64,000 nucleotides of DNA from an uncultured Ignavibacteria bacterium (GTDB taxonomy: Bacteria; Zixibacteria; MSB-5A5; SM1-73), in contig CAYGCR010000001.1 in the NCBI GenBank assembly GCA_964348415.1, positions 10,639-74,638 on the forward strand, written 5' to 3'. The notes beneath the pieces are model-generated. The model worked only from the letters and a program-made list of their open reading frames with translations. It did not search any database and was not told where the DNA came from. The position numbers were made by a program, and so were the translations under genes. Below are positions 1,911 to 24,793 of the stretch, piece after piece (within the stretch, counting starts at the first letter, position 1; each line of letters begins with the position of its first letter).

Positions 1911-1934
1911 CTTTTTGGGTTAGCGCCGATCCTT

Positions 1935-2098: not shown

Positions 2099-2114
2099 TT
2101 TTTTTAAAGATATT

Positions 2115-2142
2115 TTGACAAAAGAGAGTATTTTAGTATATT
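2115..2142 (+). promoter_or_regulatory. Sigma70-type promoter upstream of the LivK-like gene
   Basis: TTGACA-N16-TATATT in an AT-rich patch. Confidence 0.55.
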
Positions 2143-2304
2143 TTGTTAGACCAAGAGCGTCGGCTGAGACTTTTAGATTGGGTTTGGGTGCACTGCTCTT
2201 GACAGGACGTGCATGACAAGCGGACCGGGATGCTGTTGTTTGTCATGTTTTTCTGAAGAGACAACGATGTTAACCCCGGCCTCATTTTAAGGGGACACTC
2301 TTCA

Positions 2305-3459: not shown

Positions 3460-3494
3460 CAGCATGCCCTGATCCTGGAGGAGGCACAGGTCAC

Positions 3495-4670: not shown

Positions 4671-4752
4671 TCTGCTTCGACCTTGAATCCGTCAGTAGCG
4701 TTGCTGACAAAGTATCCTCAAAAGACCGTAACTCCCGAAAAAACGCGAAAGC

Positions 4753-5253: not shown

Positions 5254-5266
5254 GAGAGATTAGAAG

Positions 5267-7675: not shown

Positions 7676-7685
7676 GAATCGTGGC

Positions 7686-8369: not shown

Positions 8370-9698
8370 TTGGAAGATCAGAAGAATCTGGCAGGCGAAG
8401 ACGAGATTCTGTTTCAGCCAATACTGAAGACCGGAAAGAGATTCTATCTGGTAGTGGGTATCCTGCTGTCGCTGTGGGCAGGAGGAGCGTTGGCCTACTT
8501 CACCCAGCTCGAGTCCGGCCTGGGCGTTACCGGGCTGAATCGACCCGTGTTCTGGGGTATCTACATCATCAATTTTGTTTTCTTCATTGGAATAAGCCAT
8601 GCCGGGACTCTGATTTCCGCCATCCTGAGGCTCTCCAAGGCGGAGTGGAGGAGGCCCATCACCAGATCGGCCGAGGTGATCACCGTGATGGTGCTTTTCT
8701 TTGGGGTGGGGAATATCTTGATCGACTTAGGGAGAATCGACCGGATGTTCAACATCATCAAGCATGCCCAGTTTCGTTCTCCCCTTCTCTGGGACGTGGC
8801 CAGCATCACCATCTACTTGACCGCCAGCAGCATCTATCTCTTTCTGCCCCTGATCCCGGACATAGCTCTGCTCAGGGACAGGGGGGAGAAGAGGAAGCGG
8901 TTATACAGAATCCTCTCCCTGGGTTGGATGGGAACTCCCAAACAATGGAGGCGTTTGGAGATAGGAATTGGTATCATGGCTATTCTGGTCATCCCTATTG
9001 CCGTCTCCGTGCACACCGTGGTTTCCTTCGTCTTTGCCATGACCATTCAGCCTATGTGGCATTCGGCTATCTTTGGACCCTATTTCGTGGCCGGGGCAAT
9101 ATTCTCGGGGATCGCCGCATTGATCATCGCCATGTTTATTATCAGGAAAGTATATCATCTGGAGGACTATCTGAAACCGATTCATTTCAACTACCTGGGA
9201 ATTCTTCTTCTGGTCATGACCTTGCTGTGGTTCTATTTCACCTTCACCGAGTACCTGACCACCTTCTACGGTGCGGAGCCGGTTCACATGTCTATCTTCT
9301 ATTCCAAGTTGACCGGTCGCTTCGCCCCCTATTTTTGGATGATGTTCATCACCTGTTTTGTGATACCTTTCGTGCTTCTGTGCAACAGTAAAACCAGAAC
9401 TGTGACAGGAACCGTGATCGCCTCGGTCTCGGTCACCATCGGAATGTGGCTGGAGAGATTCACCATAGTGGTCCCAACCCTTATCAACCCCAGGTTGCCC
9501 TCGGGCTATACCGTCTATCATCCTACCTGGGTAGAGTATCTCGTGACCGTGGCCTGCTTTGCCGCATTCATCCTGTTCTATGTCCTATTCACCAAATTCT
9601 TCCCCATCGTCTCGATCTGGGAGATTCGCGAGGGAAGAGAAAAGGCGTTGAAGGAAGTTGAGGAGAGGGTAAAGACATATTTCCCGGGTGCTGAATGA
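8370..9698 (+). CDS. NrfD/PsrC-family membrane quinone-interacting subunit (ActC-like)
   Basis: NFVFFIGISHAGTLISAIL, WRRPITRSAE, SPLLWD, VSVHTVVS, MWLERF; many TM helices; abuts the upstream stop. Confidence 0.92.
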   Translation: MEDQKNLAGEDEILFQPILKTGKRFYLVVGILLSLWAGGALAYFTQLESGLGVTGLNRPVFWGIYIINFVFFIGISHAGTLISAILRLSKAEWRRPITRSAEVITVMVLFFGVGNILIDLGRIDRMFNIIKHAQFRSPLLWDVASITIYLTASSIYLFLPLIPDIALLRDRGEKRKRLYRILSLGWMGTPKQWRRLEIGIGIMAILVIPIAVSVHTVVSFVFAMTIQPMWHSAIFGPYFVAGAIFSGIAALIIAMFIIRKVYHLEDYLKPIHFNYLGILLLVMTLLWFYFTFTEYLTTFYGAEPVHMSIFYSKLTGRFAPYFWMMFITCFVIPFVLLCNSKTRTVTGTVIASVSVTIGMWLERFTIVVPTLINPRLPSGYTVYHPTWVEYLVTVACFAAFILFYVLFTKFFPIVSIWEIREGREKALKEVEERVKTYFPGAE

Positions 9699-9737
9699 GA
9701 TGTTTCGATAACAGCAATCAAAGCTGAGGGCCAAGAA

Positions 9738-10907
9738 GTGGGTTTGAGAGTCGGAAGAGTCAATTCAGTCCTGTGGGGGTCGGTGCTTCTCTTTTTCTTT
9801 CTGACCTTCCTGGGTTTTTCTCAGGTTGAGTTTCGTCTCTCCCCGGGTGAGGTCAAAGAGGGCTGGAGAGTCTTTTATCAAAAGGGTTGCTTTGAATGCC
9901 ACTCGTTGTGGGGTCAGGGCGGAAGGGTGGGTTCCGAACTATCCGGGAAGACCGGGGAGGTCCTCTCCGCCACCAAATTGGCAGGCATATTGTGGAACCA
10001 TGCCCCCGAGATGTGGCACCGCATGGGGGAGGAGAAGATAGCCTCCGTTCAGATCGGGGAGGAGGAGATGGCTCACCTGCTCAGCTTCCTTTATTTCATC
10101 CGGTTCACGGACCAGCCCGGGGACACAGCCCGAGGGGAGAAGCTGCTTTACGAGAAGCGGTGTGGGCTGTGCCATTCGCTTCGCGGTGCAGGAGGAAAAA
10201 TCGGTGCAGACCTGTCAACCTGGGGGAATTTCGTCAACCCCATCCTCTGGGCTCAGATAATGTGGAATCACGCTCCCCAAATGAGAGAAGAGATGAGAAG
10301 AAGAGAGCTCTCCTGGCCCCAGTTCCAGGAAGGCGAGATGAACGATTTGATCAGCTATATAAGAAGCGTAAGTCCACCCCAAGAGAGGGTCTATCTCCCC
10401 TTGGGCAACCCGGAGTCGGGAAGGGGACTGTTCTCCCAAAAGGGATGCGGAAACTGTCACAGTGTGGGAGAGGGGAAAGGAATTGATCTGACCAGGGTCG
10501 AACCATTCCCCTTAACCTTCAGCCAGGTGGGCGCTCTGATGTGGAATCATCTACCCAAGATGTGGAACCTGATGGAGCGGAAAGGGATCAGTCCTTCGGA
10601 GCTTTCAGCCCAAGAGATGGCTGATCTTATTTCCTATATCATCTCCTCGCGCTATTTCAAGCGTGGAGGAAAAGAAGAGGTCGGCAAGAGAATATTCTCG
10701 GAGAAAAGGTGCGATCTGTGCCACACTGCAGAGACCGCTCTGGGCGGATTGGAAGAAGAGATCACCCCGATCTTCCTGGCTCATTCCATGTGGAATCACG
10801 GCCAGACAATGTTGAGGGAGATGAGAGAGAGGGGGCTCAAGTGGCCTGAATTCCGGGATGATGAAGTGGAGCACCTGCTGGAGTATCTCAATAGCCGCGC
10901 AGAATAA
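9738..10907 (+). CDS. Cytochrome c with four tandem class I-like heme domains
   Basis: CFECH, CGLCH, CGNCH, CDLCH, each followed by a [LM]WNHxxxM motif; N-terminal signal/TM segment. Confidence 0.85.
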   Translation: MGLRVGRVNSVLWGSVLLFFFLTFLGFSQVEFRLSPGEVKEGWRVFYQKGCFECHSLWGQGGRVGSELSGKTGEVLSATKLAGILWNHAPEMWHRMGEEKIASVQIGEEEMAHLLSFLYFIRFTDQPGDTARGEKLLYEKRCGLCHSLRGAGGKIGADLSTWGNFVNPILWAQIMWNHAPQMREEMRRRELSWPQFQEGEMNDLISYIRSVSPPQERVYLPLGNPESGRGLFSQKGCGNCHSVGEGKGIDLTRVEPFPLTFSQVGALMWNHLPKMWNLMERKGISPSELSAQEMADLISYIISSRYFKRGGKEEVGKRIFSEKRCDLCHTAETALGGLEEEITPIFLAHSMWNHGQTMLREMRERGLKWPEFRDDEVEHLLEYLNSRAE

Positions 10908-11091
10908 GATGGTTTGCCCGTACCGAAACCAGAGCGCAACCTGTTATTCTCAGGGGCAAAGTTCCACACCCAGAAAGTCTTTTTCAGACTGATCCCCGCT
11001 AGATAAAGGCCCAGAACGTCAAAGGGCTTGGTCAAGGCGGGAAAGGACGAAAGACCGAAGCGTCAAAACACCCTAACCAGGAGAACGTGTC

Positions 11092-11232
11092 GTCATCGAA
11101 CTGCTCAAGAGATTCAACGTTTTCGAGGGCATGGAAGATGAGGAGTTGCAGGAGATCGCCTCGTCTTGTAGCATAAAGCAGTTCTCGAAGGGAGAACAGG
11201 TCTTCCGGGCGGGAGACCCCGGTCCCATTTAG
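11092..11232 (+). pseudogene. Truncated cyclic-nucleotide-binding (Crp/Fnr-type) domain fragment
   Basis: Translates VIELLKRFNVFEGMEDEELQEIASSCSIKQFSKGEQVFRAGDPG then stops; SD-like AGGAGA at 11079-11084 precedes an out-of-frame GTG. Confidence 0.7.
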
Positions 11233-12043
11233 CCATATCGTAGACCGTCGAGTAGAGCCCTCCGGCCGAATACGGTAGGCTACTGTGAACTGCTACCCCA
11301 GGCACAAGGGTACTCGCGGAATCGAACGTGTGGCCCCTTGCCGAGCCAGGTAGATCCATGAATCCATCCGGGAAACTGCTATTGCTCATGCCAAGCGGCT
11401 CAAAAACGTGTTTACGCATATATTCCCGGTAAGTCTCCCCCGATACTTTTTCAATGATCAAACCAAGCAGATAATAACCTGAGTTGCTATAGCGCCATTC
11501 CGAGCCAGGTTCGAATAGCAGAGGAAGATCTTTGAATATGGACACAACATCTTCTAATCTGGCCGGCCTGTCGTACATTTCCTCAAACCGCGGCAAATCA
11601 GTATATTCGGTAATACCTGACGTATGAGTCAACAGATGGTAGGAAGTAACCTCGTCACCTGCTGGTTTGGGATAGTCTGGCAAGTACTTGACTATTGGAT
11701 CGTCGAGATTCAGAAGCTTCTTTTCTGCCAGTTGCATGATGGCAGTTGCGGTAAACTGCTTTGTCACAGAACAGATCAGGTATTTCGTTTCCGGCGTATT
11801 CGGCTCGGACGATGAAACATCAGCCATGCCGTATCCCTTGGTGAAAAGAACTTTGTCGTCTTTCGCGACCAGGACAGCGCCGCTGAAATTCAGAACGCGC
11901 TGAGCGGCATCAAGGTACTCTTCGAATTTCTGGTCTAAGGTCTGCGCCGATGATATATTGGCTGACGTCATTATGACGAATGCGGCAAGGCAGAATAGTG
12001 CGAAACGGTGTCGGTGCGTCTTTAATTTGAATAGTGGTGACAT
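11114..12043 (-). pseudogene. C-terminally truncated serine hydrolase (beta-lactamase class C-like family)
   Basis: Signal peptide, SVTK (SxxK), YSNSGY, AGGLYSTVYDMAKWDR, then non-homologous tail from about 11220; SD GGAGG before ATG 12043. Confidence 0.8.
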
Positions 12044-12097
12044 GGTACCTCCAATGATTTGATTGAACACTGTGTGCTCTTATTCTGAGTTGAACGA

Positions 12098-12445
12098 CTA
12101 TTTATTCTCGGAATCTTTGCGAACCCCAGGCGGCTTAGTGAACAACTCCTTCATCTTGTTGCGATAGATCTCAAACGCTTCTCTACCTTGGTCGGTCAGG
12201 CTGAGGAACGTCTTAGGTATCTTGCCGACGAACTCCTTCTGAACGGTCAGATACCCGGCCACCTCCAGTTTACTCAGGTGTGAAGACAGATTCCCCGGCG
12301 TCAGGTGAGTTTGATTCTGGACAAAGAGGAATTCGGCTCTCTCGATCACGTAGAGCAACGCCATAATGTCGTATCTCGCCGGCTCATGAATGAGCCGATC
12401 GACCTCGGACAACCGGTAGCTGTCGGCGTCGTTATCTGTCGACAT
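12098..12445 (-). CDS. Winged-helix transcriptional regulator (MarR/ArsR-like)
   Basis: IHEPARYDIMALL, LTPGNLSSHLSKLE.AGY, LTDQGREAF; start ATG 12445 overlaps the upstream gene end. Confidence 0.85.
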   Translation of the reverse strand: MSTDNDADSYRLSEVDRLIHEPARYDIMALLYVIERAEFLFVQNQTHLTPGNLSSHLSKLEVAGYLTVQKEFVGKIPKTFLSLTDQGREAFEIYRNKMKELFTKPPGVRKDSENK

Positions 12446-13070
12446 CAGGCGCCTCCGGGGTTGGCTTTGGGTATTTCTTCGTGAATCCGGAAAGAAGCGT
12501 GAGTCCATAAACGAGGATTACGGCCCCCGGTATGCCAAAGCTAATAAGGGAGTTGAATGGCTTGTCAAGGTATCGATACATGAAATCCGAATAGGGAATA
12601 CCGACGAACAGTACCGCCGCATAGACGTACATTCGAGGATAGTCCAGGAAATAAGCCGCGATAACTATCACGGGCGCTAGGACCAGACCCACGGTCAGCG
12701 GTAAGCCGAAATTCTCTGCCAGACTTGCTCCGAAACCTTTTGCCGTTGTCATGAGAAGCAACGGAAGCGTGAGGAAAAAGAAGGCGGCACAGATCACCAG
12801 GAAGAATAGCCTTCTTGATCTCCGTTTTGGTCCAAACTCAACAGCCCCCAGCCTCGGAATCGTGACGCACCGCTTCCCCAACCAGACAAAAACAGCGGGG
12901 ATGAACCCAAACAGATATCCGTAGAATCTAGGGATTCCGATGGACTGCAGAACCGGGATCAACGCCAGAATCAGAAACAGCATCCCAAAGAGGATATCGT
13001 AGATACCGTCGTCGAAGGTTGAGCGATACGCCCTCCTCTCGATTTCCTTGAGGGAATCAGTCATTCTCAT
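12432..13070 (-). CDS. Multi-pass membrane protein of unknown function
   Basis: About six hydrophobic segments; overlaps the wHTH gene start. Confidence 0.75.
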   Translation of the reverse strand: MRMTDSLKEIERRAYRSTFDDGIYDILFGMLFLILALIPVLQSIGIPRFYGYLFGFIPAVFVWLGKRCVTIPRLGAVEFGPKRRSRRLFFLVICAAFFFLTLPLLLMTTAKGFGASLAENFGLPLTVGLVLAPVIVIAAYFLDYPRMYVYAAVLFVGIPYSDFMYRYLDKPFNSLISFGIPGAVILVYGLTLLSGFTKKYPKPTPEAPDVDR

Positions 13071-13110
13071 AGATGATCACCTCCGTTGAACGAGTTATGT
13101 TGGGTCAAGG

Positions 13111-13127
13111 ACTTTGCGTTACAAACT
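13111..13127. promoter_or_regulatory. Candidate operator for the wHTH regulator
   Basis: Near-palindrome ACTTTG-N5-CAAACT about 40 nt upstream of the operon start. Confidence 0.4.
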
Positions 13128-13431
13128 ATTCTACGTAGCAGAACTAAGATTGTTTCACAATGTCAAGAAAATTCACAAATTTTCTGCCTGGATCGAAAGA
13201 ATCCCCGTTAGGCTCTCAGACGTCACAGGTCAACCTAAGCGCTTGTTATACAACATATTATTGTTAGAATGGATTGATCAAGAGGGGGGATAAAGTGGAA
13301 GTCAGTCTGGAGTCCAAAAAGGCAGCGTCGTTAAAGTACTGACCTGCCCCGACATTTCTGTTCTGTCAGGTCGTGCCCTGACAGCCGCAGCCGAAGTCCG
13401 CATTCCGGATACAGACATGCACTCTTCATGA

Positions 13432-13478
13432 GCGTCAGGTCACAGTCAGGGCGGGGCATGAGTAAGACCTGACGCAAC
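13432..13478. repeat. REP-like palindromic element, family A
   Basis: GCGTCAGGTC...GACCTGACGC; shares CATGAGYAAGACCTGAC.CAAC with the copy at 20158-20205. Confidence 0.65.
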
Positions 13479-13534
13479 CGGAAAGCCCCGGCACAGTCGA
13501 GGGCTCTCTCATCACCCAGACTCCGGGGCGGTCG

Positions 13535-15049
13535 CTACTTAACCTCCAGCGTCATGGGATCGCGAAGGGGCAGAATGTTGATTTCACCGAAATCCGAAAA
13601 ACGTTCGTCGTGTTTGTCTGACCCTTCCTGCACGGCCTCCGGATCGCCTACGACCAAGAACACCAGCTTGTCGGGATGTAGGTATTTCTGTGCAGCCGCC
13701 AGGATGTCATCCGCAGTTAAGGCCTCGGTATTCTTTGTGTAGTTTTTCCAATAATCATTCGGCCGACCGGTGTAATCATCATCCGCAAAGGTGTTGACGA
13801 TGGTGTTCTTGCTGCTGAAGGGATTGACCACTTTGCTGATGAAGCTGGCTTTGGAATTTTCGACGACTTCCTCTTCGCATTTTTCAGCACGCATGCGGCT
13901 GATCTCTTCGACGATAAGCGCTGTGCCGAATGCTGCGGTGGCGTGCTTGGTCTGGAACCATGCCCGAAACGTGCCGGGGTACACCACAGGAGTCTCGAAG
14001 CTGCTGCCGGTGTTGTAAGCCAAGCCCTCGTCTGAACGCACCCGACGCTTGATGCGCGAGGTGAAGCTGCGGCCACCCAGGATGTCGTTCATCACTGCAA
14101 GGGCATACTCATCGGGTATGTCCCGCTTGACGCCAAGGTGTCCCACGCTGATGCGCGACTGGTTGACGTCCTCCTTCTTGATCATATATATCCCGGGTTT
14201 GGGAGCGGGGATCTGGTCGGGAATTGTGGGAAGCTCCAACTGCTGATCGGGCCATCCGTCAAGCATGTTGTTGAGCTTGGCTAGGATTTCATCGGTCTTG
14301 AAATCCCCGGAGACGGCGAAAATGAAGTTTTTCGGGAAGAAGTATTTCTTATGGAACGCAATCAGGTCTTCCCGGGTGATCGAATTGACGGACCCTTCCG
14401 TGCGGCGGTAGGGAATGGTGCACGGGTGGTCGCCGTACATCAAGAACTTCCACTCGCGGGATTCGATGGCAGAGGTAGAGGCATTACGTTGCTCCATCTC
14501 CGAGAGGACATCCGCGCGGTAACGATCCAGTATATCCTGATCGAAAACCGGGGTGCGCAGGATCTTCTTTAGCAACTCCAGCCCCTCATCTATGTCTTTC
14601 GACAGGCAGAAAAGAGTGGCCTTTCCCTGCGATTCGCTCATATTAACGGAAATCTCCCCGGCCAGGAAGGCAAGCCTGTCATCCAGTTCTTTCGCGGTCA
14701 TCCCCTGGACGCCGCCGTTGCGCATCAGGTAACCGGTCATATCGGCCAGTCCCGCTTTCTCCATCGGTTCGTACATCGAACCCGTGCGAACCAGAACTGT
14801 CAATTCAAACGTGGGAACTTCGTGATTTTCCGCCACGTAGGCAGTGGCACCACATTTCAATGTATGACGGTAATCGTCAGGCTTGGGCGGCTGATATTTC
14901 AATTCCTTGAATTTCAGTTTGTCGGGATGATCGACGATTTTCTCCGCCCGCGTAACAGAGGCGGAACCCAACACGGCAGCCAATGCCAGGATCGTCAACA
15001 GCGGCACCAAGCGGCTGAGCGATGAATTTGATAATCTCTTCATGTTCAT
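13535..15049 (-). CDS. M16 (pitrilysin) family peptidase, non-catalytic subunit
   Basis: Signal peptide, LAVMNDILGG..FTSR...RVRSDEGLAY; no HxxEH. Confidence 0.88.
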   Translation of the reverse strand: MNMKRLSNSSLSRLVPLLTILALAAVLGSASVTRAEKIVDHPDKLKFKELKYQPPKPDDYRHTLKCGATAYVAENHEVPTFELTVLVRTGSMYEPMEKAGLADMTGYLMRNGGVQGMTAKELDDRLAFLAGEISVNMSESQGKATLFCLSKDIDEGLELLKKILRTPVFDQDILDRYRADVLSEMEQRNASTSAIESREWKFLMYGDHPCTIPYRRTEGSVNSITREDLIAFHKKYFFPKNFIFAVSGDFKTDEILAKLNNMLDGWPDQQLELPTIPDQIPAPKPGIYMIKKEDVNQSRISVGHLGVKRDIPDEYALAVMNDILGGRSFTSRIKRRVRSDEGLAYNTGSSFETPVVYPGTFRAWFQTKHATAAFGTALIVEEISRMRAEKCEEEVVENSKASFISKVVNPFSSKNTIVNTFADDDYTGRPNDYWKNYTKNTEALTADDILAAAQKYLHPDKLVFLVVGDPEAVQEGSDKHDERFSDFGEINILPLRDPMTLEVK

Positions 15050-16859: not shown

Positions 16860-17097
16860 CAAGCACTCCTTCCAGGATTCTGAATTGAATGGATAAATCA
16901 TTCCAACTTACGTTCCTTTGCGGGCTTTACTGAAGTAAATTGATAATCTATTGAACCGTCAAAGTCAAGCACGAAATTACTGTCACACAGGGAGCGTGAC
17001 TCGGTCTGCCCTGCCTAGGCGGGGAAGCTTGCCAGACCGCGTATATTCCGGCCAAGCAGGCATGGCAAGCCATGAGCAAGACATGCTGCAACTGAAC

Positions 17098-17148
17098 GGA
17101 CACTGCCTTTGACGGCGGCGACAAGAGTTCAAATCTCGTTGGGGACGC
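17098..17148 (+). repeat. Degenerate direct repeat of the 3' half of tRNA-Glu (att-like relic)
   Basis: Matches 1860-1911 with 3 substitutions and 1 deletion; GAGTTCAAATCTCGTTGGGGACGCT is identical; 5' half of the tRNA is absent. Confidence 0.85.
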
Positions 17149-17849
17149 TCTTTTTATCCGAACTTCCCCCAAAGCAACCCTCTAAACAACAAGTCAAACG
17201 GGACAGAACGAAATCGCCAAGCCAAAACAAAGCCAACCAAATTGGTTTATTTTGACTTGAAGACGGCACAAGTCCGGCTCAAAACTCCAATCCAGGTTTT
17301 TCCGAAAAATGCGGAGTATCGTTGCCGGAGTAGTCCAATACATCAGGTGCGCGAAACGCCTGTTTTTTTGTACGTAATCCTATGAACCTCGATAACTCTG
17401 ATTTGGTCAGAAGCATTAGATTTGCCCTGCAACTCCTAAGGCGCTTTTCTTTTCCCAAACCCTTTGCAAGCCGAACGCAGTTCAGCATGCCTTTGACAGC
17501 AGACCTAGTCTTGCGATGAGTGATCACTTGCCGCTTATTAGGCATGTTGTGCTGGTAACCTGAATACGCTTGTTTTGACTCACGGGGTCGGAAATCCGTT
17601 CAGTGCTTCGCAACAAGAAAGAGGTTGATTCACGGCCACGAATGGTTTATAATCCACAAGAATAGTTTTATATCTATTGTAAGGAGTCAACAGAAAGAAT
17701 GACACGAGTATTAATAATGATATAAAATATGCCAGGGGCTCAGAATGCCGAAAATGGAGGGAAAGAGAGATAGGCAACAAGGAACAGCTGGTGTGATTCA
17801 ATAAAACCAAGCAGAGGACAACAGTTAAATAAACAGCCAACATTTTTGA

Positions 17850-18836
17850 ATGCCAAAGGAGAAGTTTGTCGTGGGTAACAAATGCATACAACTGACTTGC
17901 ATCATTCTGTTGGCACTTTGCCTGGGACTATTCAAAGTTGGTGGGCAAACACCATATGGGCAGCCGTACGGGGAGAAGTATAGGAGGGCAATCGCTAAAG
18001 AGATTGCATATGGTAAAGAAGAAGAAATGGTGGGTATGGTCTATGTAAAAGATCAGCCCCGCTTAGGCCCCGAATCTTTTTCAAACGATTCTGAAGGAAA
18101 TCTTTACGTTTGTGACGGGGTTAATCAGAGAATCCAAATTTTTTCCCCAAACGGAAAACATGAGTCTACAATTTTCTTAGAAAAAGGAGTGAGAGCAAGT
18201 GATATTGCAGTAGACAGATTTGGGTTTATATATGTTTATGATGCACAGGGGAAACTTTACCAGTACGACAGGAAGGGAAACCTTCTACGTACAATAGATG
18301 TGGACAGTTCCCGTTGGCAGGTTAGAATGGCTATGCATATGGTTGGTGGCAATATCTACATTCGAAATGTTGATCAGGAAGATGTGCTAATTGGTAAGGT
18401 TATAAAAGGCGTATTAACGGCACCTACAACAGAGGAACTCGCTCAGCCCCCTGAAAAGGGCATTCACGGATCGAGCGGGCGGAGGTATATTCTGACGTTA
18501 TTAAGGTGGCAAAAAGGCGTAGTAGAAATCCTTGATACAAGTGGGACAACTGTTAATATCGAGATGCCGATAAAGGATATAGTCTCTACAACATTTTTAC
18601 GGGAAGATAACCAAGGGAATTTCTACATTCAGACCGAGCGCGTTGAAGACAGCAAAATTGCGCTTGAAGTTCACAAATTCGACGCTCAGGGGAACCTTCT
18701 AACCGTCATCCCGATTCCAGATACTAATTATTCCACGTGGACAATCAAACTTCTTTCCCTTGATGACGAGGGAAATATTTATCAGTTTCTGCCCGGAAAA
18801 GAAAAAGCGCAACTAAATGTTTTTCAACCGGAATAA
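17850..18836 (+). CDS. Secreted NHL/beta-propeller repeat protein
   Basis: Signal-like N-terminus; GPESFSNDSEGNLYVCDGVNQRIQIF, DIAVDRFGFIYVYD, DDEGNIYQ repeats. Confidence 0.75.
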   Translation: MPKEKFVVGNKCIQLTCIILLALCLGLFKVGGQTPYGQPYGEKYRRAIAKEIAYGKEEEMVGMVYVKDQPRLGPESFSNDSEGNLYVCDGVNQRIQIFSPNGKHESTIFLEKGVRASDIAVDRFGFIYVYDAQGKLYQYDRKGNLLRTIDVDSSRWQVRMAMHMVGGNIYIRNVDQEDVLIGKVIKGVLTAPTTEELAQPPEKGIHGSSGRRYILTLLRWQKGVVEILDTSGTTVNIEMPIKDIVSTTFLREDNQGNFYIQTERVEDSKIALEVHKFDAQGNLLTVIPIPDTNYSTWTIKLLSLDDEGNIYQFLPGKEKAQLNVFQPE

Positions 18837-18864
18837 CTATCCATAACTGAGTACGGGATCAAGG

Positions 18865-19566
18865 ATGAAGCTCAAAGCCCTTATACCGGCAACATTTGTC
18901 AGTAGCATACTGTTAATGACAATATGCTACGGTTCGAGCGGAGACACCTGGGGTCCGATAAGCAGGCAAGCTATAACCTCAATAGCAGGTCAAATGATAG
19001 ATTCTTCTTGGACTCCAAGGTCCACTATTCGCAACTGGGCTTATGGTTCTGTGTGGTATTATTTTTACTCTGGAATGACGTACAGAGGTGAAGCATATTG
19101 TCAACAGAACGCTCAGGAGAATTGGGCTGAGTTTTTCAGCTTTGTAGATAACACCAAAGGTGGGGACACGTATTTTGGAAATGACTGTTCTGGTTTCGTA
19201 AGTATAAGCTGGCGGTTACCGAAAAGATATACCTGCACAGATTTTGAATGCGATGCTATAAGTAGCACCAATCGTTTTTGTGGCCCTTATCATGACCCCT
19301 GGAGTGATGATTATGCCCAAAGTCTCGGAAATGTGGGCAGTGGCGGGCAGGTAACTCTATTGCAGGGAGATGCTCTGGTTAATTCCGGAGTCCATATAAT
19401 ACTTTTTGATAGGTATGCCACTTCTGGAATAGTATCAATGGAGCAAACTCCAGGACCTCGGGTGTCTTCAGATGAGATGAGACGGTATTGGTCCTGGACC
19501 TCGTTAAGTAGCTATAGGCCAATACGGAGAAATTTGCTTGGTGGTCCTTCCGTTTCAGGCCACTAG
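18865..19566 (+). CDS. Secreted NlpC/P60-like cysteine hydrolase, possibly truncated by a nonsense codon
   Basis: Signal peptide, GNDCSGFVSISW (catalytic Cys), GVHIILF (His), MEQT. Confidence 0.7.
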   Translation: MKLKALIPATFVSSILLMTICYGSSGDTWGPISRQAITSIAGQMIDSSWTPRSTIRNWAYGSVWYYFYSGMTYRGEAYCQQNAQENWAEFFSFVDNTKGGDTYFGNDCSGFVSISWRLPKRYTCTDFECDAISSTNRFCGPYHDPWSDDYAQSLGNVGSGGQVTLLQGDALVNSGVHIILFDRYATSGIVSMEQTPGPRVSSDEMRRYWSWTSLSSYRPIRRNLLGGPSVSGH

Positions 19567-19749
19567 GATAGTGACGGAGGAGATGCTTTTGGCTACTTCG
19601 AAAATAATCTGCTTTGCTTGAATGATTGGCAAAGATCAGTAGCCCCGTGCTCCTGACAGTATTCTTGTCATCTGAAACCTCGCCCCTGAGTCATCCTCTC
19701 CACAATGGTTGACCTACAAAATCGTGCCGAAGCTGGCGGCATTTTTCTC

Positions 19750-19778
19750 TTGATTTTTCCAAGCGAAGTGCATAATAT
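19750..19778 (+). promoter_or_regulatory. Sigma70-type promoter of the histone-fold gene
   Basis: TTGATT-N17-TAATAT; SD AAGGAGG at 19825-19831. Confidence 0.5.
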
Positions 19779-19837
19779 TCGAAGGTCAGAGGAGGGTGGT
19801 TCAGGGGTGTCAGTAACTATCAATAAGGAGGATGGCC

Positions 19838-20014
19838 ATGGCCAAGAGTTACGTGGTTGCTTCCAGGATCCAGAATTTCGCAGGTAAACAGAAGATGAGG
19901 CTGAGTAGTAAGGCCATAACCGTCGTAGACGGCAAGATTGAGGAATTGCTGAAGACGGCCATCACGAGAGCCAAGGGCAACGGACGCAAAACAATAATGC
20001 CGTACGATCTCTAA
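19838..20014 (+). CDS. Bacterial histone-fold protein (singlet, 58 aa)
   Basis: MAKSYVVASRIQ...MRLSSKAITVVDGKIEELLKTAITRAKGNGRKTIMPYDL; GRKTI-x3-D motif; strong SD 6 nt upstream. Confidence 0.85.
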   Translation: MAKSYVVASRIQNFAGKQKMRLSSKAITVVDGKIEELLKTAITRAKGNGRKTIMPYDL

Positions 20015-20157
20015 ATTGACAACATCAGGCGACTGGTCAGACGACGAATCCTAATCTTCTGATGTTTGGAGAATAGGAATTCCAGAAGCTCATTGTCTTT
20101 GTTGTTCCGTCAGGTCTTCCTTGCCCAGGCGGGTATGATCTGTCACTAAGGACAGAG

Positions 20158-20205
20158 TGTGTCAGGTCACACTGATGGTAACCCATGAGCAAGACCTGAC
20201 ACAAC
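20158..20205. repeat. REP-like palindromic element, family A
   Basis: TGTGTCAGGTC...GACCTGACACA between convergent genes. Confidence 0.65.
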
Positions 20206-20225
20206 GAAGACTATTGTGATCGAGG

Positions 20226-23200
20226 TCATCTCTTCTTGACCTCAACCCAATTATTGTCTCTTTCGCGGTCTATCAAGACCACATAGGGGTCGATGCTTGC
20301 CCGAACCGGTTTCTTGTCCACCAGAATTTCGATCTCTGTCTCGTTCTGGGTCAACCTGTGTTTCTTCAGATATAGCTCTTCATCATCTTCTCCCAGAACG
20401 CCTATGTCGATATAATCTTGAATGGGAATTTCGGTCTGGTTACCGACACTGTCGGCCCTGAATTTGTGGCTGGAGACTTCCAGCGTAACCTTATACTTCC
20501 CGTCATCCAATTCTGTATAGGAAGCCGACTTTGCTTCATTCTCCCACAGCGTGATGGTCTCGAACACATCGGTGATGATGTATCGCAAGCTGTCTGGAGC
20601 GGCGGCCTTGAAGGCGTTTACCACGTCAAGGGACGTAGGAAAAACATCATCCCTGTGCCCGTACTCCTTCACAATTTCCCTCAGAGCCGCATTGACCCGA
20701 TCCTCACCAATCAAGTCCTGCAGGGCATACATCACCGCAGCGCTCTTAGGATAACTCAGATAATACTGATCTATGTAACCTCTCATCAGGGATCGCTCGC
20801 CGGCCACGTCCTTTTTCCGCCTGGAGAGATAACGCTCCATCTCCTTCTTTAAGAACTTACGGGATATCTCCTTCCCGTATTCCTTTTCCAGACACATTAC
20901 TTCAACGTACTGGGCTATAGTCTCGGTGAGCATCTCGGCACCCTCAGCACGAGCGGGCTTGACGATATATGGCCACCACTGATGGGCCATCTCGTGTGTA
21001 CAGATACCGAATACTAAGTCGATGTCCCCGGGGTCTTCCAGGTTGCTGATGAACCCCGCATCCTCCCGCCAAGTAAACAAAGTAGGCTGGGAGCGTGCTC
21101 CGAAATGAACGTACCTGGGAATCTCGGCTATTCGGAGAACTCGGTAAGGGAAAGGACAGAAATTCCTGGTACAATAGTCCAGGGACCGCTTCACCCCTTT
21201 GATCATGCGCTGCACGTTATGGGGATGCTTCTTATCATGGTACACTTCGATTTTAATCCCCCCGTATTCGTCTTCGGCTATCTCGTATTCGGAGGAGGCA
21301 AAGACAAACTCGGTATGCATTGGAGCTTCAGAGCCGAAGTGGAAATAGTTTCTTCCGTCCTGGGTCCATTCTCGGACCAGACTCCCGTTGCTGACAACTC
21401 TCTGAGATCCGCTGGTGCTGATGGTGGCTTCATATTCCGTAAGGTCGAACTCAGGCTCGCAAATCGATCTGTCGGCTTCCTCCAATGGCGGACTCTTGGG
21501 CTGTTTTGGCAGGCCATGCTTTTCCCGATCTCTTTCTTTGGTGAGCTCCAGGCCTCGCACGTAACCTATGAGAGGGAAATATTCGGGGGACTGCGACATA
21601 AGCAGAAAACAGGTTCCTTTTCGGGCAAGCTGATCTTTTGGATTGTTCTCGGTGAACCCTTTCGCTTTGGCGGTCAGGTCGAACTCAAGCCGGGTTTCCT
21701 CACCGGGAGCGAGAGGGGCGTCCAATTGGAGAATGCGAAATCCGTATTCCTCGCCCAGATGCGCCAGTGTTGCCGGGCTTGACAATTCGAGTCGGCCCTC
21801 GTTGGTGATATATCTGTCTGAAAGATTGATGTAGATCTCGCGGATGGGTTGGTGGGTTTTGTTCTTCAGCACATAATATCCTTCAATGTCCGCCTTTCTC
21901 GCTTCGGGGAAAATGTCCACGGTCAGCTTAACATCCGTTATCCTGGGCTGGGGAGCATTTTTATACTGTGCATATTTCTTTTCGTAATCGGCTCTGATTC
22001 TTTTTCTCTGGTCTCTTGACGTGTATTGATTCAGAATGTATTTGTTATAGGAAATGTACCCCCCGGTTGCCAAGAACAGAACCAGCAGGATACCCAATGC
22101 CCAATGAAACCGCCTGTTTAGTTTCTGCAGTCCCACCCTGAATCGGAACTTCAGAGCCGTTTCGTTGTTGCGACGCCACAGGAGTGACGTCAGGACACCC
22201 AGGATGCCTGCGAACAGAATCCAATATATGGAGTACCAGATCAGAAGGGGCCCGTAGTGCCCGAAGCCGTTTAAGTTGGAATAGGTGAACGGAGGCAGTT
22301 GACCGTATCGGAGGAGGAAATTCTCCGCCTTTAAGACCTCGAAGATGATCAGATCGGCGGCAACGTAAATGGCGGAGATGAAGAATCCCAGGATCTTGTT
22401 ACCCACCAGGTTGTGGATGAAAAAGATGATTATCGTCAAGAACCAGAATTTCAGCAGTGTGATGCCGAACAGGTGCTTAAGATACAGACCCAATTCGAGG
22501 TTGGTGTAGCCGAAGCCGATTACCTGGGTGGCGATCCCGGTGAGCATGGCCAGCACCACGTAGAAAAGCTGAATGGACATCATGGTCAAAAGCTTAGACA
22601 GATAGCTCAGCCAGTCGGGTAGCGGAAGCGTGTCGTAGAACTCGTTGGACCCATGATCCCGCTCCCGCCAGATGATCAATCCGCCGAATAGAATGGTCAG
22701 CGGAATCATGTAAATCCAGATATGCAGGGTCTGTTCCAGAAAGCGTGAGGTGAGGGGGTAAACGTTGTCTCCCATGTGGCCGGCATTTGCCGCAAAATTC
22801 ATGACCAGCTCACCCATGGCCATGACGGTCAGAATGAGGAAGGCCGGATGGAAAACGATCCTTTTGAATTCTCTGAAAACGAGGTGGAAGCATTTCTTTA
22901 GTTGGAAGCCAAAAGCATCGTCGATGATCGTTGGTCGGATCTTTCGCAGGGTATGGACAGCCTTGAATTCGATCCCTTCGATGCCCAGTCGCTTTTCTTT
23001 TTTCTTCTCCAGGAGCGAAACGAATTCAAATCGTGTCAAGGTATAAAGAAGAATGGCAAGACTGACCACCATCCAGATGATTCGGTTCCATATGAGGGGA
23101 GCCTGCAAAGGAATCTGTTTAAGGTTGATGTCGGCCACGGTCCAGTACTTGGTCAGGATGCCCAGCCCGGAGATGCCGAAGGGGTCGAGCAGGATTTTCG

Positions 23201-23813
23201 CGGTGTCGTTTTCCCAACCGGTGAAACCACCCTGCACTGCGCCGTAGATCATAAGGAATCCAACACCTGCCAGGTAGGTCATCAACATGTTTCGGCTCAG
23301 GGTCGCCAGGGAGAAGAAGATGCTGCCGATAAGCAGCAGGTTTGGAATCAAGATGATCACCGCCGGAAGCAGGAACGCCGATAGGTTAAACGGGCCGTAA
23401 TATTTGGGATTGATGACCAAACAGCCTGCGACAAATCCGAGGGCGATGCCGGAATAGATGAGAAAATTGGCCGACAGTCCGCCCAGAAACCGGCCACCGA
23501 GATAGGAAGCCTTGCTCATGGGAACGGTGAAGAAGAAGTCGTGGATCCCAGCGGAGAAGTCGCGGGTCACGGCACGCCCCACCATGACCATGGTGAACAG
23601 CACCCCCACCACGCTGAAGCGCGCCGTCAGCTTGGCAATGAGCAGGGGCGCGTTGTGCCATTCCTTGCCGATGCTAAGTCCCATGATGTATGAATGTGGA
23701 TTGAGATTGGACGCGAATATATATGCTCCGAAGAACAACAGAGCAGAGAAGATGTAGAAGGAGGCACCTTTGAGGTTTCTTTTGAATTCGATCAAATAAA
23801 TATCTAAAAACAT
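20226..23813 (-). CDS. ABC-2 type permease fused to an M1-family aminopeptidase domain
   Basis: Two blocks of about six TM helices, then a soluble domain with HEMAHQWW and downstream LTE; YLSYPKSAAVMYALQD. Confidence 0.9.
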   Translation of the reverse strand: MFLDIYLIEFKRNLKGASFYIFSALLFFGAYIFASNLNPHSYIMGLSIGKEWHNAPLLIAKLTARFSVVGVLFTMVMVGRAVTRDFSAGIHDFFFTVPMSKASYLGGRFLGGLSANFLIYSGIALGFVAGCLVINPKYYGPFNLSAFLLPAVIILIPNLLLIGSIFFSLATLSRNMLMTYLAGVGFLMIYGAVQGGFTGWENDTAKILLDPFGISGLGILTKYWTVADINLKQIPLQAPLIWNRIIWMVVSLAILLYTLTRFEFVSLLEKKKEKRLGIEGIEFKAVHTLRKIRPTIIDDAFGFQLKKCFHLVFREFKRIVFHPAFLILTVMAMGELVMNFAANAGHMGDNVYPLTSRFLEQTLHIWIYMIPLTILFGGLIIWRERDHGSNEFYDTLPLPDWLSYLSKLLTMMSIQLFYVVLAMLTGIATQVIGFGYTNLELGLYLKHLFGITLLKFWFLTIIIFFIHNLVGNKILGFFISAIYVAADLIIFEVLKAENFLLRYGQLPPFTYSNLNGFGHYGPLLIWYSIYWILFAGILGVLTSLLWRRNNETALKFRFRVGLQKLNRRFHWALGILLVLFLATGGYISYNKYILNQYTSRDQRKRIRADYEKKYAQYKNAPQPRITDVKLTVDIFPEARKADIEGYYVLKNKTHQPIREIYINLSDRYITNEGRLELSSPATLAHLGEEYGFRILQLDAPLAPGEETRLEFDLTAKAKGFTENNPKDQLARKGTCFLLMSQSPEYFPLIGYVRGLELTKERDREKHGLPKQPKSPPLEEADRSICEPEFDLTEYEATISTSGSQRVVSNGSLVREWTQDGRNYFHFGSEAPMHTEFVFASSEYEIAEDEYGGIKIEVYHDKKHPHNVQRMIKGVKRSLDYCTRNFCPFPYRVLRIAEIPRYVHFGARSQPTLFTWREDAGFISNLEDPGDIDLVFGICTHEMAHQWWPYIVKPARAEGAEMLTETIAQYVEVMCLEKEYGKEISRKFLKKEMERYLSRRKKDVAGERSLMRGYIDQYYLSYPKSAAVMYALQDLIGEDRVNAALREIVKEYGHRDDVFPTSLDVVNAFKAAAPDSLRYIITDVFETITLWENEAKSASYTELDDGKYKVTLEVSSHKFRADSVGNQTEIPIQDYIDIGVLGEDDEELYLKKHRLTQNETEIEILVDKKPVRASIDPYVVLIDRERDNNWVEVKKR

Positions 23814-23920: not shown

Positions 23921-24793
23921 TCAGTTCACTTTGTTTAAATGATAGAAATAGACATCCTCCAGCGACGGCTTGATATTCGAAAATCCGTTTTCAGGACTGA
24001 CTTCGCTGTAGATATAAATGAACGTCTTGCCTGCGAAGAGCCGCGTGGAGATTACGCTATACTTCTCTTCATATTCGGGTAGGTCAGCTTTTGAAATTTC
24101 TTTTTCCCAGATCTTTCCTTCCAGTTGGGACATGGCCTCCAGCGTGTTCTCTTTCAATATGATTCTGCCCCCGTCTATGATGGCCATGTTCGTACAGAGA
24201 TCGCTCACGTCGTCCACGATGTGCGTCGAGAGGATGACCACAACGTTCTCGCCGATTTCACTGAGCAGGTTGTGAAAGCGGACGCGCTCCTCCGGGTCCA
24301 GTCCGGCCGTGGGCTCATCCACGATGATGAGCTTGGGATTTCCGATGAGTACCTGGGCGATGCCGAAGCGCTGCCTCATACCGTTGGAATACGTGCCCAG
24401 CCTTTGCTTCCGCTCGTTCCAGAGATTGGCCCGCTTAAGGAGTTCTTCGACTTTGACCCTTCTTTCTTTTTTGTCTTTGACACCTTTCAGCAGGGTAAAA
24501 TGATCCAGCAGATCGTAGCCCGTGTCCTTGGGATAGAATCCGAAAGTCTGGGGCAAGTAACCCAGCAGTTTCTTCACTTCATTCTTCTGTCTCAAGACGT
24601 CAATGCCTTCGAACGTGATCTCGCCTGAGTCAGCTTCCTGGAGGGTAGCGATGGTCCTCATCAGAGTGGACTTTCCAGCCCCGTTGGGACCCAGCAAGCC
24701 AAACAGTCCGGTAGGGATCTCTAAGGACACGTCGTCCAACGCCACAACCCCGTTGGCATAGGTTTTGGAAAGATTGTTAATTGATAGTTCCAT
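23921..24793 (-). CDS. ABC transporter ATP-binding protein
   Basis: GPNGAGKST, YSNGMRQR signature variant, IIVDEPT, STH. Confidence 0.95.
   Translation of the reverse strand: MELSINNLSKTYANGVVALDDVSLEIPTGLFGLLGPNGAGKSTLMRTIATLQEADSGEITFEGIDVLRQKNEVKKLLGYLPQTFGFYPKDTGYDLLDHFTLLKGVKDKKERRVKVEELLKRANLWNERKQRLGTYSNGMRQRFGIAQVLIGNPKLIIVDEPTAGLDPEERVRFHNLLSEIGENVVVILSTHIVDDVSDLCTNMAIIDGGRIILKENTLEAMSQLEGKIWEKEISKADLPEYEEKYSVISTRLFAGKTFIYIYSEVSPENGFSNIKPSLEDVYFYHLNKVN

What the first reader, a model, noticed from the sequence alone, without database searches (positions are those of the whole stretch)
19750..20014. Stand-alone bacterial histone gene
This 58-aa basic ORF has its own promoter-like sequence and a strong SD. 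It shows the histone-fold pattern: short alpha1 (VVASRIQ), loop MRLS, long alpha2 (KAITVVDGKIEELLKTAITRAK), then GRKTIMPYDL. That last stretch carries the R-x6-D clamp of archaeal HMf (GRKTIKAEDI) and ends with a truncated alpha3. From memory it aligns along its length with Bdellovibrio Bd0055 (VVTSKVK...AKADGRKTVMARDI). Bacterial histones are recently described and studied in few species, and genes this small are easily missed or left hypothetical. Whether it acts as a dimer or a face-to-face tetramer cannot be told from sequence. It sits between accessory blocks, so it may be core or acquired.
Basis: partly seen in the sequence, partly recalled or inferred. Interest (0 to 1): 0.85.

Follow-up and report, generated by a model that had tools for sequence, protein, structure and literature searches.

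The report
Face-to-face-type bacterial histone gene
This is a real, conserved 58-residue gene for a bacterial histone in an uncultured marine-sediment bacterium; its sequence marks it as the ring-forming, DNA-wrapping "face-to-face" type, a protein class described in 2024-2025 but not reported from this lineage in the papers I could search.

Summary
A 58-aa, very basic ORF (19838-20014, +; pI 10.4) follows an invariant AAGGAGG Shine-Dalgarno. It is conserved in eight orthologous metagenomic loci with dN/dS 0.06-0.26.

It is a histone-fold protein of the α3-truncated family. A family profile hits HLp, HTkC and HBb at E 1e-16 to 1e-15. An AlphaFold2 model (pLDDT 87.8) superposes on them at TM 0.84-0.91.

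R44, N48, R50, T52, D57 and a C-terminus one residue after the Asp reproduce the face-to-face (FtF) signature exactly. R44 matches HTkC R45, whose R45A mutant is a dimer. The HBb family has S/A/N and D at these two positions and six residues after the Asp.

Most likely it forms a toroidal tetramer that wraps DNA non-specifically.

Two caveats apply. Whole-sequence scores do not place it in either characterised cluster. The clade also lacks the family's conserved α1 lysines (Q12, G16).

The gene looks native, not mobile. The source is a Zixibacteria-labelled MAG in the FCB group. Verdict: new member of a known kind, moderate interest.

The parts
19838..20014 (+). Coding sequence, 58 aa plus stop: MAKSYVVASRIQNFAGKQKMRLSSKAITVVDGKIEELLKTAITRAKGNGRKTIMPYDL. 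An α3-truncated histone fold: α1 8-17, L1 18-23, α2 24-47, L2 48-54, α3 55-57.
   Evidence: ORF; 8 ortholog clusters at 79-100% identity; dN/dS 0.06-0.26; profile hits to HLp, HTkC and HBb at E 7e-17 to 9e-16; AF2 pLDDT 87.8; Foldseek TM 0.84-0.91 to the same three proteins.
19967..20011 (+). Codons 44-58 (RAKGNGRKTIMPYDL): the FtF signature. R44 is the tetramer Arg, N48 the tetramer Asn, R50-x-T52-x4-D57 the L2 DNA-contact and RD clamp, and L58 the C-terminal carboxylate one residue after the Asp.
   Evidence: R44, N48, R50 and D57 are invariant and T52 nearly invariant in 83 relatives at 34-52% identity. The spacing is identical to the FtF HMM positions 48/52/54/56/61 (PMC11390915). These residues match HLp R49/N53/R55 (PMC12701072) and HTkC R45, whose R45A mutant is a dimer. 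In independent reference sets, FtF proteins have R+N and 1 residue after the Asp in 117/118, while the HBb family has S/A/N+D and 6 residues after it in 112/112.
19825..19831 (+). Shine-Dalgarno AAGGAGG, 6 nt upstream of ATG 19838.
   Evidence: Read directly from the sequence; invariant in 8 orthologous loci.
19750..19778 (+). Promoter-like TTGATT - 17 nt - TAATAT (alternatively CATAAT with a 15-nt spacer), preceded by a T-rich tract at 19742-19749.
   Evidence: 8/12 consensus match, below the scan threshold, so not called by the scan. CTTGA, the flanking T-runs and ATAA are invariant or nearly so across 8 loci. That this is a promoter is inferred.
19705..19837 (+). Conserved upstream block of about 130 nt that travels with the gene. 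It includes GGTTGACCTACAAA (19707-19720), a weak hairpin plus T-run (19724-19749), the promoter-like element and the 5' leader.
   Evidence: Homology between loci begins here even though the genes further upstream differ. Mean identity is 79%, against 73.5% at third codon positions and 60% further upstream. There is no RNA covariation (term +0.8). The motifs are unique in the window.
20015..20100 (+). Conserved 3' flank with a hairpin at 20049-20078 (TCCTAATCTTC...GGAGAATAGGA). It is not a canonical intrinsic terminator because no T-run follows.
   Evidence: Mean identity 72.6% over 85 nt. RNAalifold predicts the hairpin with only 2 compensatory pairs and a covariation term of +0.61. Function unknown.

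Best explanation
The locus is a monocistronic, native gene for a 58-residue prokaryotic histone of the α3-truncated family, of the face-to-face (FtF) class.

Proposed mechanism, by analogy with HLp and HTkC: two chains form the usual handshake histone-fold dimer. Two dimers then close face to face into a toroidal tetramer. The contacts are a salt bridge from R44 to the C-terminal carboxylate (L58) of the opposing dimer, and hydrogen bonds from N48 to R50. The very basic ring (12 K/R against 4 D/E per chain, pI 10.4) binds the DNA backbone without sequence specificity. It would do so through the A8-S9-R10 'paired ends of helices' and the L1/L2 loops (K17, K19, R21, R50, K51, T52), wrapping roughly 60 bp and compacting the nucleoid as an abundant nucleoid-associated protein.

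Shown here: the gene is real and under purifying selection; it has the histone fold; it belongs to the α3-truncated family; it carries every FtF-diagnostic residue; its genomic context is native.

Inferred, not shown: tetramerisation, DNA binding and wrapping, and high expression.
For: Gene reality: 8 ortholog clusters and dN/dS 0.06-0.26.

Fold: AF2 pLDDT 87.8, with a 24-residue α2 and a 3-residue α3. Foldseek gives HBb TM 0.89 (rmsd 0.9-1.5 Å), HLp TM 0.88-0.91 (rmsd 1.0-1.1 Å) and HTkC TM 0.84-0.86, and every lower hit listed is also a histone.

Family: profile hits to HLp 7e-17 (gap-free to the C-terminus), HTkC 1.8e-16, HBb 8e-16 and HMfA 1e-3. Pfam DUF1931, Histone and CBFD_NFYB_HMF give weak hits.

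FtF class: R44, N48, R50 and D57 are invariant and T52 nearly so in 83 relatives. The spacing and the C-terminal position equal the published FtF signature and the HLp interface residues R49/N53/R55. The equivalent Arg in HTkC is experimentally required for the tetramer. Nearly all of the top 150 relatives carry R/N and end 1 residue after the Asp. Independent reference sets separate the classes cleanly on these features. The window protein's nearest neighbours are R/N-class: mean 45.8 bits against 29.4 to the Bd0055-like class, while HBb shows the reverse.

DNA binding: A8-S9-R10 aligns with the HLp DNA contacts A13-S14-K15, and T52 with T57. Charge is +12/-4.

Native gene: GC3 0.66, like typical genes of the window; conserved convergent neighbour; no phage, plasmid or viral relatives.
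Against: Whole-sequence scoring does not place the protein in the characterised bacterial FtF cluster: 38.5 bits to the Leptospira/Planctomycetota FtF HMM against 33.3 to the HBb-family HMM, and HBb itself scores 44.7 on the FtF HMM. By single-sequence phmmer, HBb is the best PDB hit.

The clade has lost the family's most conserved α1 basic residues. Position 12 is K/R in 87% of relatives but Gln here, and position 16 is K/R in 62% but Gly here. These align with the DNA-contacting K17 and K21 of HLp.

There are no expression data. The promoter match is only 8/12.
Confidence: 0.6

Rival explanations
1. It is a Bd0055/HBb-type 'bacterial dimer' histone. It would stay a dimer and bend DNA in the manner of HU/IHF instead of wrapping it.
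For: HBb is the best single-sequence PDB hit (E 1e-4, 34-36% identity, full length) and the top Foldseek hit. The whole-sequence HMM scores for the two classes differ by only 5 bits. The GRKT loop is identical to HBb's. The loss of the α1 lysines K12 and K16 might alter the wrapping surface.
Against: The class is defined partly by the absence of the FtF Arg and Asn, and the window protein has both, invariantly. All 112 HBb-family members have S/A/N and D at these positions and a 6-residue C-terminal extension, whereas the window protein ends 1 residue after the Asp. All its nearest relatives are R/N-class. Monomer fold similarity cannot distinguish the classes, since HLp and HBb match about equally well.
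Confidence: 0.22
2. It is a histone-fold protein that has moved away from global chromatin packaging, for example a specific regulator or a protein-protein adaptor. The altered α1 surface would reflect a different ligand.
For: The family-conserved α1 basic residues are replaced (Q12, G16), and position 25, acidic in about 70% of relatives, is Lys here. An upstream block more conserved than synonymous sites could be an operator for tight or auto-regulation. Schwab et al. caution that not all histone-fold proteins are global organisers.
Against: Net charge is higher than in HBb or HLp (+12/-4, pI 10.35). The L2 RKT motif, the RD clamp and the A-S-R 'paired ends of helices' are intact. There is no extra domain. 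The strong SD and stand-alone architecture resemble the abundant nucleoid-associated protein genes.
Confidence: 0.12
3. It is cargo of a mobile element, phage or genomic island, or a contaminant contig, and not a core gene of the host.
For: It lies 2.7 kb from a tRNA-Glu att-like remnant. It sits directly downstream of two low-GC3 genes whose position is occupied by different genes in other loci. The MAG has 7.4% estimated contamination.
Against: It lies outside the tRNA repeat pair. GC3 is host-typical. The gene and the downstream ABC-2/M1 and ABC ATPase genes are syntenic in all loci long enough to show it, from about ten independent samples. There are no PHROG, phage, plasmid or IMG/VR relatives.
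Confidence: 0.04
4. It is a chance ORF with no function.
For: The ORF is very short, and NCBIfam has no match.
Against: dN/dS is well below 1, 43 of 58 residues are invariant among orthologs, there are hundreds of relatives, and the fold prediction is confident.
Confidence: 0.01

Closest known systems
HLp, the FtF histone of Leptospira perolatii (PDB 9QT0/9QT1/9QT2; Hu et al. 2025, PMC12701072)
   Same: Single histone fold with a truncated α3. The alignment is gap-free over 56 residues to the C-terminus. The tetramer residues R49/N53/R55 correspond to R44/N48/R50, and both proteins end one residue after the Asp. The DNA contacts A13-S14-K15 and T57 correspond to A8-S9-R10 and T52. Predicted fold TM 0.88-0.91, rmsd about 1 Å.
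   Different: Only about 25% identity, and no BLASTP hit was recorded between the two. There is no N-terminal tail, whereas Leptospira FtF histones always have one and most bacterial ones do. HLp's DNA-contacting K17 and K21 are Q12 and G16 here, and T27 and G29 are L22 and S24. K51 replaces T56. The genomic neighbourhood differs: no SMC, MAP or DUF350 neighbours. The phylum differs (FCB group, not Spirochaetota).
HTkC, the archaeal FtF histone of Thermococcus kodakarensis (PDB 9F2C; PMC11390915; bioRxiv 10.64898/2025.12.06.692711)
   Same: A tail-less chain of about 58 residues. R45, which is required for the tetramer (R45A gives a dimer), corresponds to R44. Profile E 1.8e-16 and TM 0.84-0.86.
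   Different: HTkC has Glu where the window protein and nearly all relatives have Asn48. It has a 2-residue longer L1. It is archaeal and coexists with nucleosomal histones.
HBb/Bd0055, the 'bacterial dimer' histone of Bdellovibrio bacteriovorus (PDB 8CMP, 8FVX, 9EZZ)
   Same: Best pairwise sequence match (34-36% identity over the full length). Same α3-truncated fold (TM 0.89). The V-V-x-S-K/R N-terminal motif and the GRKT loop are shared.
   Different: HBb has Ser and Asp where the window protein has R44 and N48. It carries 6 residues after the clamp Asp and has a 1-residue longer L1. It is a dimer that bends DNA (PMC11317129, as cited).
Archaeal nucleosomal histones HMfA/HMfB
   Same: Histone fold, RxTxxxxD / RD clamp, DNA binding through L1-L2 (profile E 1e-3).
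   Different: They have a full 10-residue α3, an α2 that is 4-5 residues longer, and an open four-helix-bundle interface that allows hypernucleosomes. The window protein has a 3-residue α3.
Pfam DUF1931 (PF09123) pseudodimeric histones such as Aquifex Aq_328
   Same: This is the only Pfam model that reaches its gathering score (22.1 against 21.8 bits). UniRef names the Leptospira FtF histones 'DUF1931 domain-containing' in the same way.
   Different: The match covers only 32 of 138 profile positions. DUF1931 proteins are two-fold pseudodimers said to lack conventional DNA-binding residues, whereas this is a single basic fold.

Membership tests
Histone-fold superfamily | α1-L1-α2-L2-α3 helix-loop-helix architecture with a long central α2 | tested here: met
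   AF2 model with pLDDT 87.8: helices 8-17, 24-47 and 55-57. All 50 Foldseek PDB hits listed are histones.
Histone-fold superfamily | L2 RxTxxxxD motif (RD clamp plus DNA-contacting Thr) | tested here: met
   R50-K51-T52...D57. R50 and D57 are invariant and T52 is present in 75/76 non-orthologous relatives.
α3-truncated prokaryotic histones (Schwab et al. 2024) | α3 of only 3-4 residues, and α2 shorter by 4-5 residues than in nucleosomal histones | tested here: met
   The model has a 3-residue α3 (55-57) and a 24-residue α2. The definition is quoted. The profile E-values to HLp, HTkC and HBb are about 13 orders of magnitude better than to HMfA.
Face-to-face (FtF) histones | Conserved Arg (HMM position 48; HTkC R45; HLp R49) that salt-bridges the C-terminal carboxylate of the opposing dimer | tested here: met
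   R44 aligns with it, is invariant in 83 relatives, and is present in 117/118 independent bacterial FtF proteins and 0/112 HBb-family proteins.
Face-to-face (FtF) histones | Conserved Asn (HMM position 52; HLp N53) at the dimer-dimer interface | tested here: met
   N48 is invariant.
Face-to-face (FtF) histones | C-terminus exactly one residue after the clamp Asp, so that the carboxylate is positioned for the Arg | tested here: met
   D57-L58-stop. One residue after the Asp in 117/118 FtF reference proteins, and 6 residues in 112/112 HBb-family proteins.
Face-to-face (FtF) histones | Confidently predicted or observed toroidal homotetramer (the class-defining criterion) | not testable with these tools
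Face-to-face (FtF) histones | Strongly conserved α1 lysine (HMM K16; HLp K17) proposed to bind DNA | tested here: not met
   The aligned position is Q12, invariant in the window's orthologs, although it is K/R in 87% of relatives. R10, K17, K19 and R21 are present nearby.
Face-to-face (FtF) histones | Sequence clustering with known FtF clusters (CLANS in the source papers) | tested here: inconclusive
   38.5 bits to the bacterial FtF HMM against 33.3 to the HBb HMM, with HBb itself scoring 44.7 on the FtF HMM. The nearest neighbours at 42-52% identity are uncharacterised R/N-class 58-aa singlets.
'Bacterial dimer' histones (Bd0055/HBb class) | Lack of the FtF Arg48 and Asn52, and membership of the HBb sequence cluster | tested here: not met
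   The window protein has both residues. The HBb family has S/A/N and D in 112/112. Mean BLAST score to Bd0055-like hits is 29.4 bits against 45.8 to R/N-class hits.
Pfam DUF1931 (PF09123) | Two-fold pseudodimer covering the 138-position profile | tested here: not met
   Only profile positions 22-53 are matched, at 22.1 bits against a cutoff of 21.8. This is a single fold of 58 aa.
Archaeal nucleosomal histones (HMf/HTk type) | Full-length α3 and an open four-helix-bundle tetramer interface that allows hypernucleosomes | tested here: not met
   α3 is 3 residues. The profile E-value to HMfA is only 1.2e-3, and the match starts at position 21.

The most novel reading that the evidence does not exclude
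Histone-based chromatin extends into the FCB superphylum (Zixibacteria or Ignavibacteria-labelled lineage). This clade's FtF histone would be a major nucleoid organiser, and its re-wired DNA-binding surface would give a binding or wrapping geometry different from HLp and HTkC. The re-wiring is the loss of the conserved α1 lysines at positions 12 and 16 and the gain of K17, K19 and K25.
Probability: 0.2. Interest if true: 0.6.

Novelty: new member of a known kind. Interest (0 to 1): 0.42.

Why it matters
Bacterial histones were characterised only in 2023-2025, and only two have been studied structurally: the dimeric DNA-bender HBb and the tetrameric DNA-wrapper HLp.

Published surveys place bacterial FtF histones mainly in Spirochaetota, Planctomycetota, Bdellovibrionota and Myxococcota. 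I found no mention of Zixibacteria or Ignavibacteria in the text and supplements I could search.

A persistent, natively encoded FtF-signature histone in an FCB-group sediment lineage widens the known taxonomic range. It also offers a tail-less, minimal 58-residue bacterial variant with a naturally altered α1 surface. That is useful for testing which contacts matter for wrapping.

It also shows that the dimer-versus-tetramer class of such small genes can be read from three sequence features, which helps annotation. NCBI leaves the homolog unnamed, and JGI calls it 'histone H3/H4'.

Tried and rejected
No quaternary test was possible.
- First AF2 run with only 8 close orthologs: pLDDT 73.6, α1 over-extended, Foldseek E about 1e-2 with rmsd 5-8 Å. 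It was superseded by the 83-sequence run.
- Whole-sequence HMM classification against independently gathered HBb and FtF families did not discriminate. I kept it as a caveat.
- RNA-structure explanation for the conserved 5' and 3' flanks: RNAalifold covariation terms are unfavourable (+0.8 and +0.61), and there is no Rfam hit at E<=1 in 16880-20240. I rejected a conserved structured RNA for the 5' block. The 3' hairpin remains unexplained.
- The terminator-like hairpin at 19724-19742 as the terminator of the upstream operon: unlikely, because the block is conserved even where the upstream gene is divergent (L005), and the stem is not maintained across loci.
- Mobile or phage origin: the only PHROG hit is at E 0.16, with no phage, plasmid or IMG/VR relatives. 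The 83-sequence alignment A2 was too diverse for the search for related loci.
- NCBIfam: no family.
- HU/IHF or a second histone in the window: none by tblastn. A 64-kb window says nothing about the whole genome.
- Recurrence of the upstream motifs elsewhere in the window: none beyond chance.
- An integrase between the tRNA-Glu repeats: none among the six ORFs scanned there.
- P0013 (4438 aa) and P0071 (1370 aa), high in the exhaustive search, are repeat proteins whose weak partial matches add up. They are not histones.

Full report
**Observation**

The window carries an ORF at 19832..20014 (+) of 60 aa. The sequence shows AAGGAGG at 19825-19831, followed at once by ATG 19832 and then by ATG 19838.

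In the alignment of eight orthologous loci, the SD and the second ATG are invariant. The first ATG is ATA or ATT in five of the seven other loci. Seven of the eight database gene calls are 58 aa.

The protein has 12 K/R against 4 D/E and a pI of 10.35. Its core is conserved in all eight loci.

**Is it a real gene?**

Eight clusters at 79-100% identity exist in public data, with 43 of 58 residues invariant. I retrieved eight distinct orthologous loci from independent metagenomes and MAGs.

Nei-Gojobori dN/dS among five distinct sequences is 0.06-0.26, at dS 0.34-0.90.

An exhaustive profile search of 1.84 billion representatives found 275 proteins at E<=1e-3. At least two of the high scorers are repeat-protein artefacts.

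**What is it?**

- Pfam gives DUF1931 just above its threshold (22.1 against 21.8 bits, partial), plus sub-threshold Histone and CBFD_NFYB_HMF hits.
- Single-sequence phmmer against PDB sequences finds HBb/Bd0055 (E 1e-4, full length), HTkC (9e-3) and HLp (0.04).
- A profile of 83 singlet relatives (34-52% identical to the window protein) hits HLp at 7e-17, HTkC at 1.8e-16 and HBb at 8e-16. Archaeal HMfA (1e-3), NF-Y and H3 follow.
- AlphaFold2 with that alignment gives pLDDT 87.8, with α1 8-17, α2 24-47 and a three-residue α3 at 55-57.
- Foldseek places the model on HBb (TM 0.89), HLp (TM 0.88-0.91, rmsd about 1 Å) and HTkC (TM about 0.85). Every lower hit listed is a histone.

This meets the published definition of the α3-truncated histone family: an α3 of 3-4 residues and a shortened α2 (PMC11390915).

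**Which class?**

Schwab et al. define FtF histones by a toroidal tetramer. They report the most conserved residues at HMM positions 48 (R), 52 (N), 54 (R), 56 (T) and 61 (D). The Arg at position 48 salt-bridges the C-terminal carboxylate, which lies one residue after the Asp. 'Bacterial dimers' such as HBb lack R48 and N52.

In HLp, the tetramer contacts are R49, N53 and R55. In HTkC, the R45A mutant converts the tetramer into a dimer.

The window protein has R44, N48, R50, T52, D57 and then L58-stop. The spacing is identical, and the residues align column for column with HLp and HTkC.

These residues are the invariant columns of the 83-sequence alignment. Nearly all of the top 150 relatives carry R/N and end one residue after the Asp.

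As a test independent of my query, I gathered the HBb family and the Leptospira/Planctomycetota FtF family separately.
- HBb family: S/A/N and D at the two positions, and six residues after the Asp, in 112 of 112.
- FtF family: R and N, and one residue after the Asp, in 117 of 118.

The window protein carries the FtF state for all three features.

**Caveats on class**

Whole-sequence HMM scores do not discriminate. The window protein scores 38.5 bits on the FtF model and 33.3 on the HBb model, and HBb itself scores 44.7 on the FtF model.

The window clade forms its own cluster. Its nearest neighbours are uncharacterised 58-aa R/N-class singlets at 42-52% identity.

The clade also lacks the family's most conserved α1 basic residues. 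Position 12 is K/R in 87% of relatives and Gln here. Position 16 is K/R in 62% and Gly here. These align with HLp K17 and K21, which contact DNA in the crystals. Instead the clade has K17, K19 and K25. The 'paired ends of helices' contact A-S-K of HLp is kept as A8-S9-R10.

**Mechanism (inferred)**

The proposed steps are a handshake dimer, then a face-to-face toroidal tetramer closed by R44 to the L58 carboxylate and by N48 to R50. The ring would bind the DNA backbone non-specifically through α1, L1 and L2, and wrap on the order of 60 bp with compaction, as measured for HLp and HTkC.

I put the histone identity at about 0.95 and the FtF wrapping mechanism at about 0.6. The main rival is an HBb-like bending dimer, at about 0.2.

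**Context**

The gene stands alone. The upstream gene ends 272 nt before it, and the downstream gene is convergent.

The downstream pair, a 1195-aa ABC-2 permease/peptidase M1 fusion and an ABC ATPase, is syntenic in all loci long enough to show it. The upstream neighbour differs between loci: an NHL-repeat protein, a TPR/CsgG protein, DUF3795, a response regulator or a radical SAM enzyme.

Homology between loci begins about 130 nt upstream of the ATG. That block is 79% identical on average, against 73.5% at third codon positions and 60% further upstream. It shows no RNA covariation. It therefore behaves as promoter or operator DNA that belongs to the gene.

GC3 of the gene is 0.66, which matches typical genes of the window (0.62-0.69). 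The two upstream genes are at 0.41.

There are no PHROG, phage, plasmid or IMG/VR relatives. The gene looks native to the clade.

**Source**

The window matches GCA_011772335.1 contig WVZS01000798.1 at 99.8% nucleotide identity over 12.1 kb. [quoted passage not shown] It is 88.7% complete with 7.4% contamination (PMC8319310).

The closest representative genome, at 88% nucleotide identity over syntenic DNA, is labelled 'uncultured Ignavibacteria bacterium'. Both labels lie in the FCB group (my own knowledge), so only that level is safe.

The held text and supplements of the three main surveys do not mention either lineage or this sequence. Literature searches that paired each lineage name with 'histone' found nothing relevant.

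**Verdict**

It is refined from 'Bd0055-like, oligomeric state unknowable' to 'FtF-signature α3-truncated histone, probably a DNA-wrapping tetramer'.

It is a new member of a known, recently described kind, in a lineage not highlighted before, with a naturally altered α1 surface. Interest is moderate.

Noticed in passing
window 1836-1911 (tRNA-Glu) and 17106-17153; L001 2294-2344 and 7184-7231: The 3' half of tRNA-Glu(ttc) is repeated 15.2 kb downstream (48 nt, 94%), which looks like an att-type remnant of integration at the tRNA. The related MAG L001 has the same pair only about 4.9 kb apart and lacks window ~1917-13536. No integrase was found among the six ORFs scanned between the repeats; they are a periplasmic binding protein, a molybdopterin oxidoreductase, a beta-lactamase-family protein, two M16 peptidases and one ORF with no Pfam hit. 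The histone gene lies 2.7 kb outside the right-hand repeat.
   Followed up: partly
window 17850-18836 and 18865-19566 (+): The two genes directly upstream of the histone gene are an NHL/beta-propeller-like protein of 328 aa and a 233-aa protein with no Pfam hit. Their GC3 is 0.41, against 0.62-0.69 for other genes in the window. Unrelated genes take their place in several orthologous loci, so they look like accessory or acquired DNA.
   Followed up: partly
window 20226-23813 (-) and 23921-24793 (-): A 1195-aa fusion of ABC-2-type permease domains with a C-terminal peptidase M1 domain, followed by an ABC ATPase. This pair is the invariant convergent neighbour of the histone gene in all loci long enough to show it. 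No functional link is evident.
   Followed up: no
P0009 (119 aa; loci L014-L016) and other ~120-aa hits: Natural tandem doublets exist, with two α3-truncated histone folds in one chain. P0009 is very close to the window protein (E 1.8e-38), and both of its halves keep the R/N signature. This suggests that a dimer of doublets could form the same torus. The contigs are too short (about 1.4 kb) to show context.
   Followed up: partly
window 20093-20208: A long imperfect inverted repeat (GTCTTTGTTGTTCCGTCAGGTC ... GACCTGACACAACGAAGAC) lies in the convergent intergenic region. The 219-nt region folds with a z-score of -4.08. In the alignment the central part is absent in L008 and partly missing in L001. 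It may be a bidirectional terminator or a small inserted element.
   Followed up: partly
window (whole) versus L001: The taxonomic labels conflict. The window's MAG was deposited as Zixibacteria, while a genome sharing 88% nucleotide identity over syntenic DNA is labelled Ignavibacteria. One of the two labels is probably wrong.
   Followed up: partly
L012 42-254: A neighbour gene in one orthologous locus carries CHU_C (weak) and Por_Secre_tail (faint) hits. From my own knowledge these are type IX secretion sorting domains, which would fit an FCB-group host.
   Followed up: no
L002 1393-1482 (Candidatus Woesearchaeota MAG JAWAQC010000016.1): An archaeal contig encodes a match at 60% identity to residues 29-58 of the window protein. 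This fits the close sequence relationship between archaeal and bacterial FtF histones noted in the literature.
   Followed up: no
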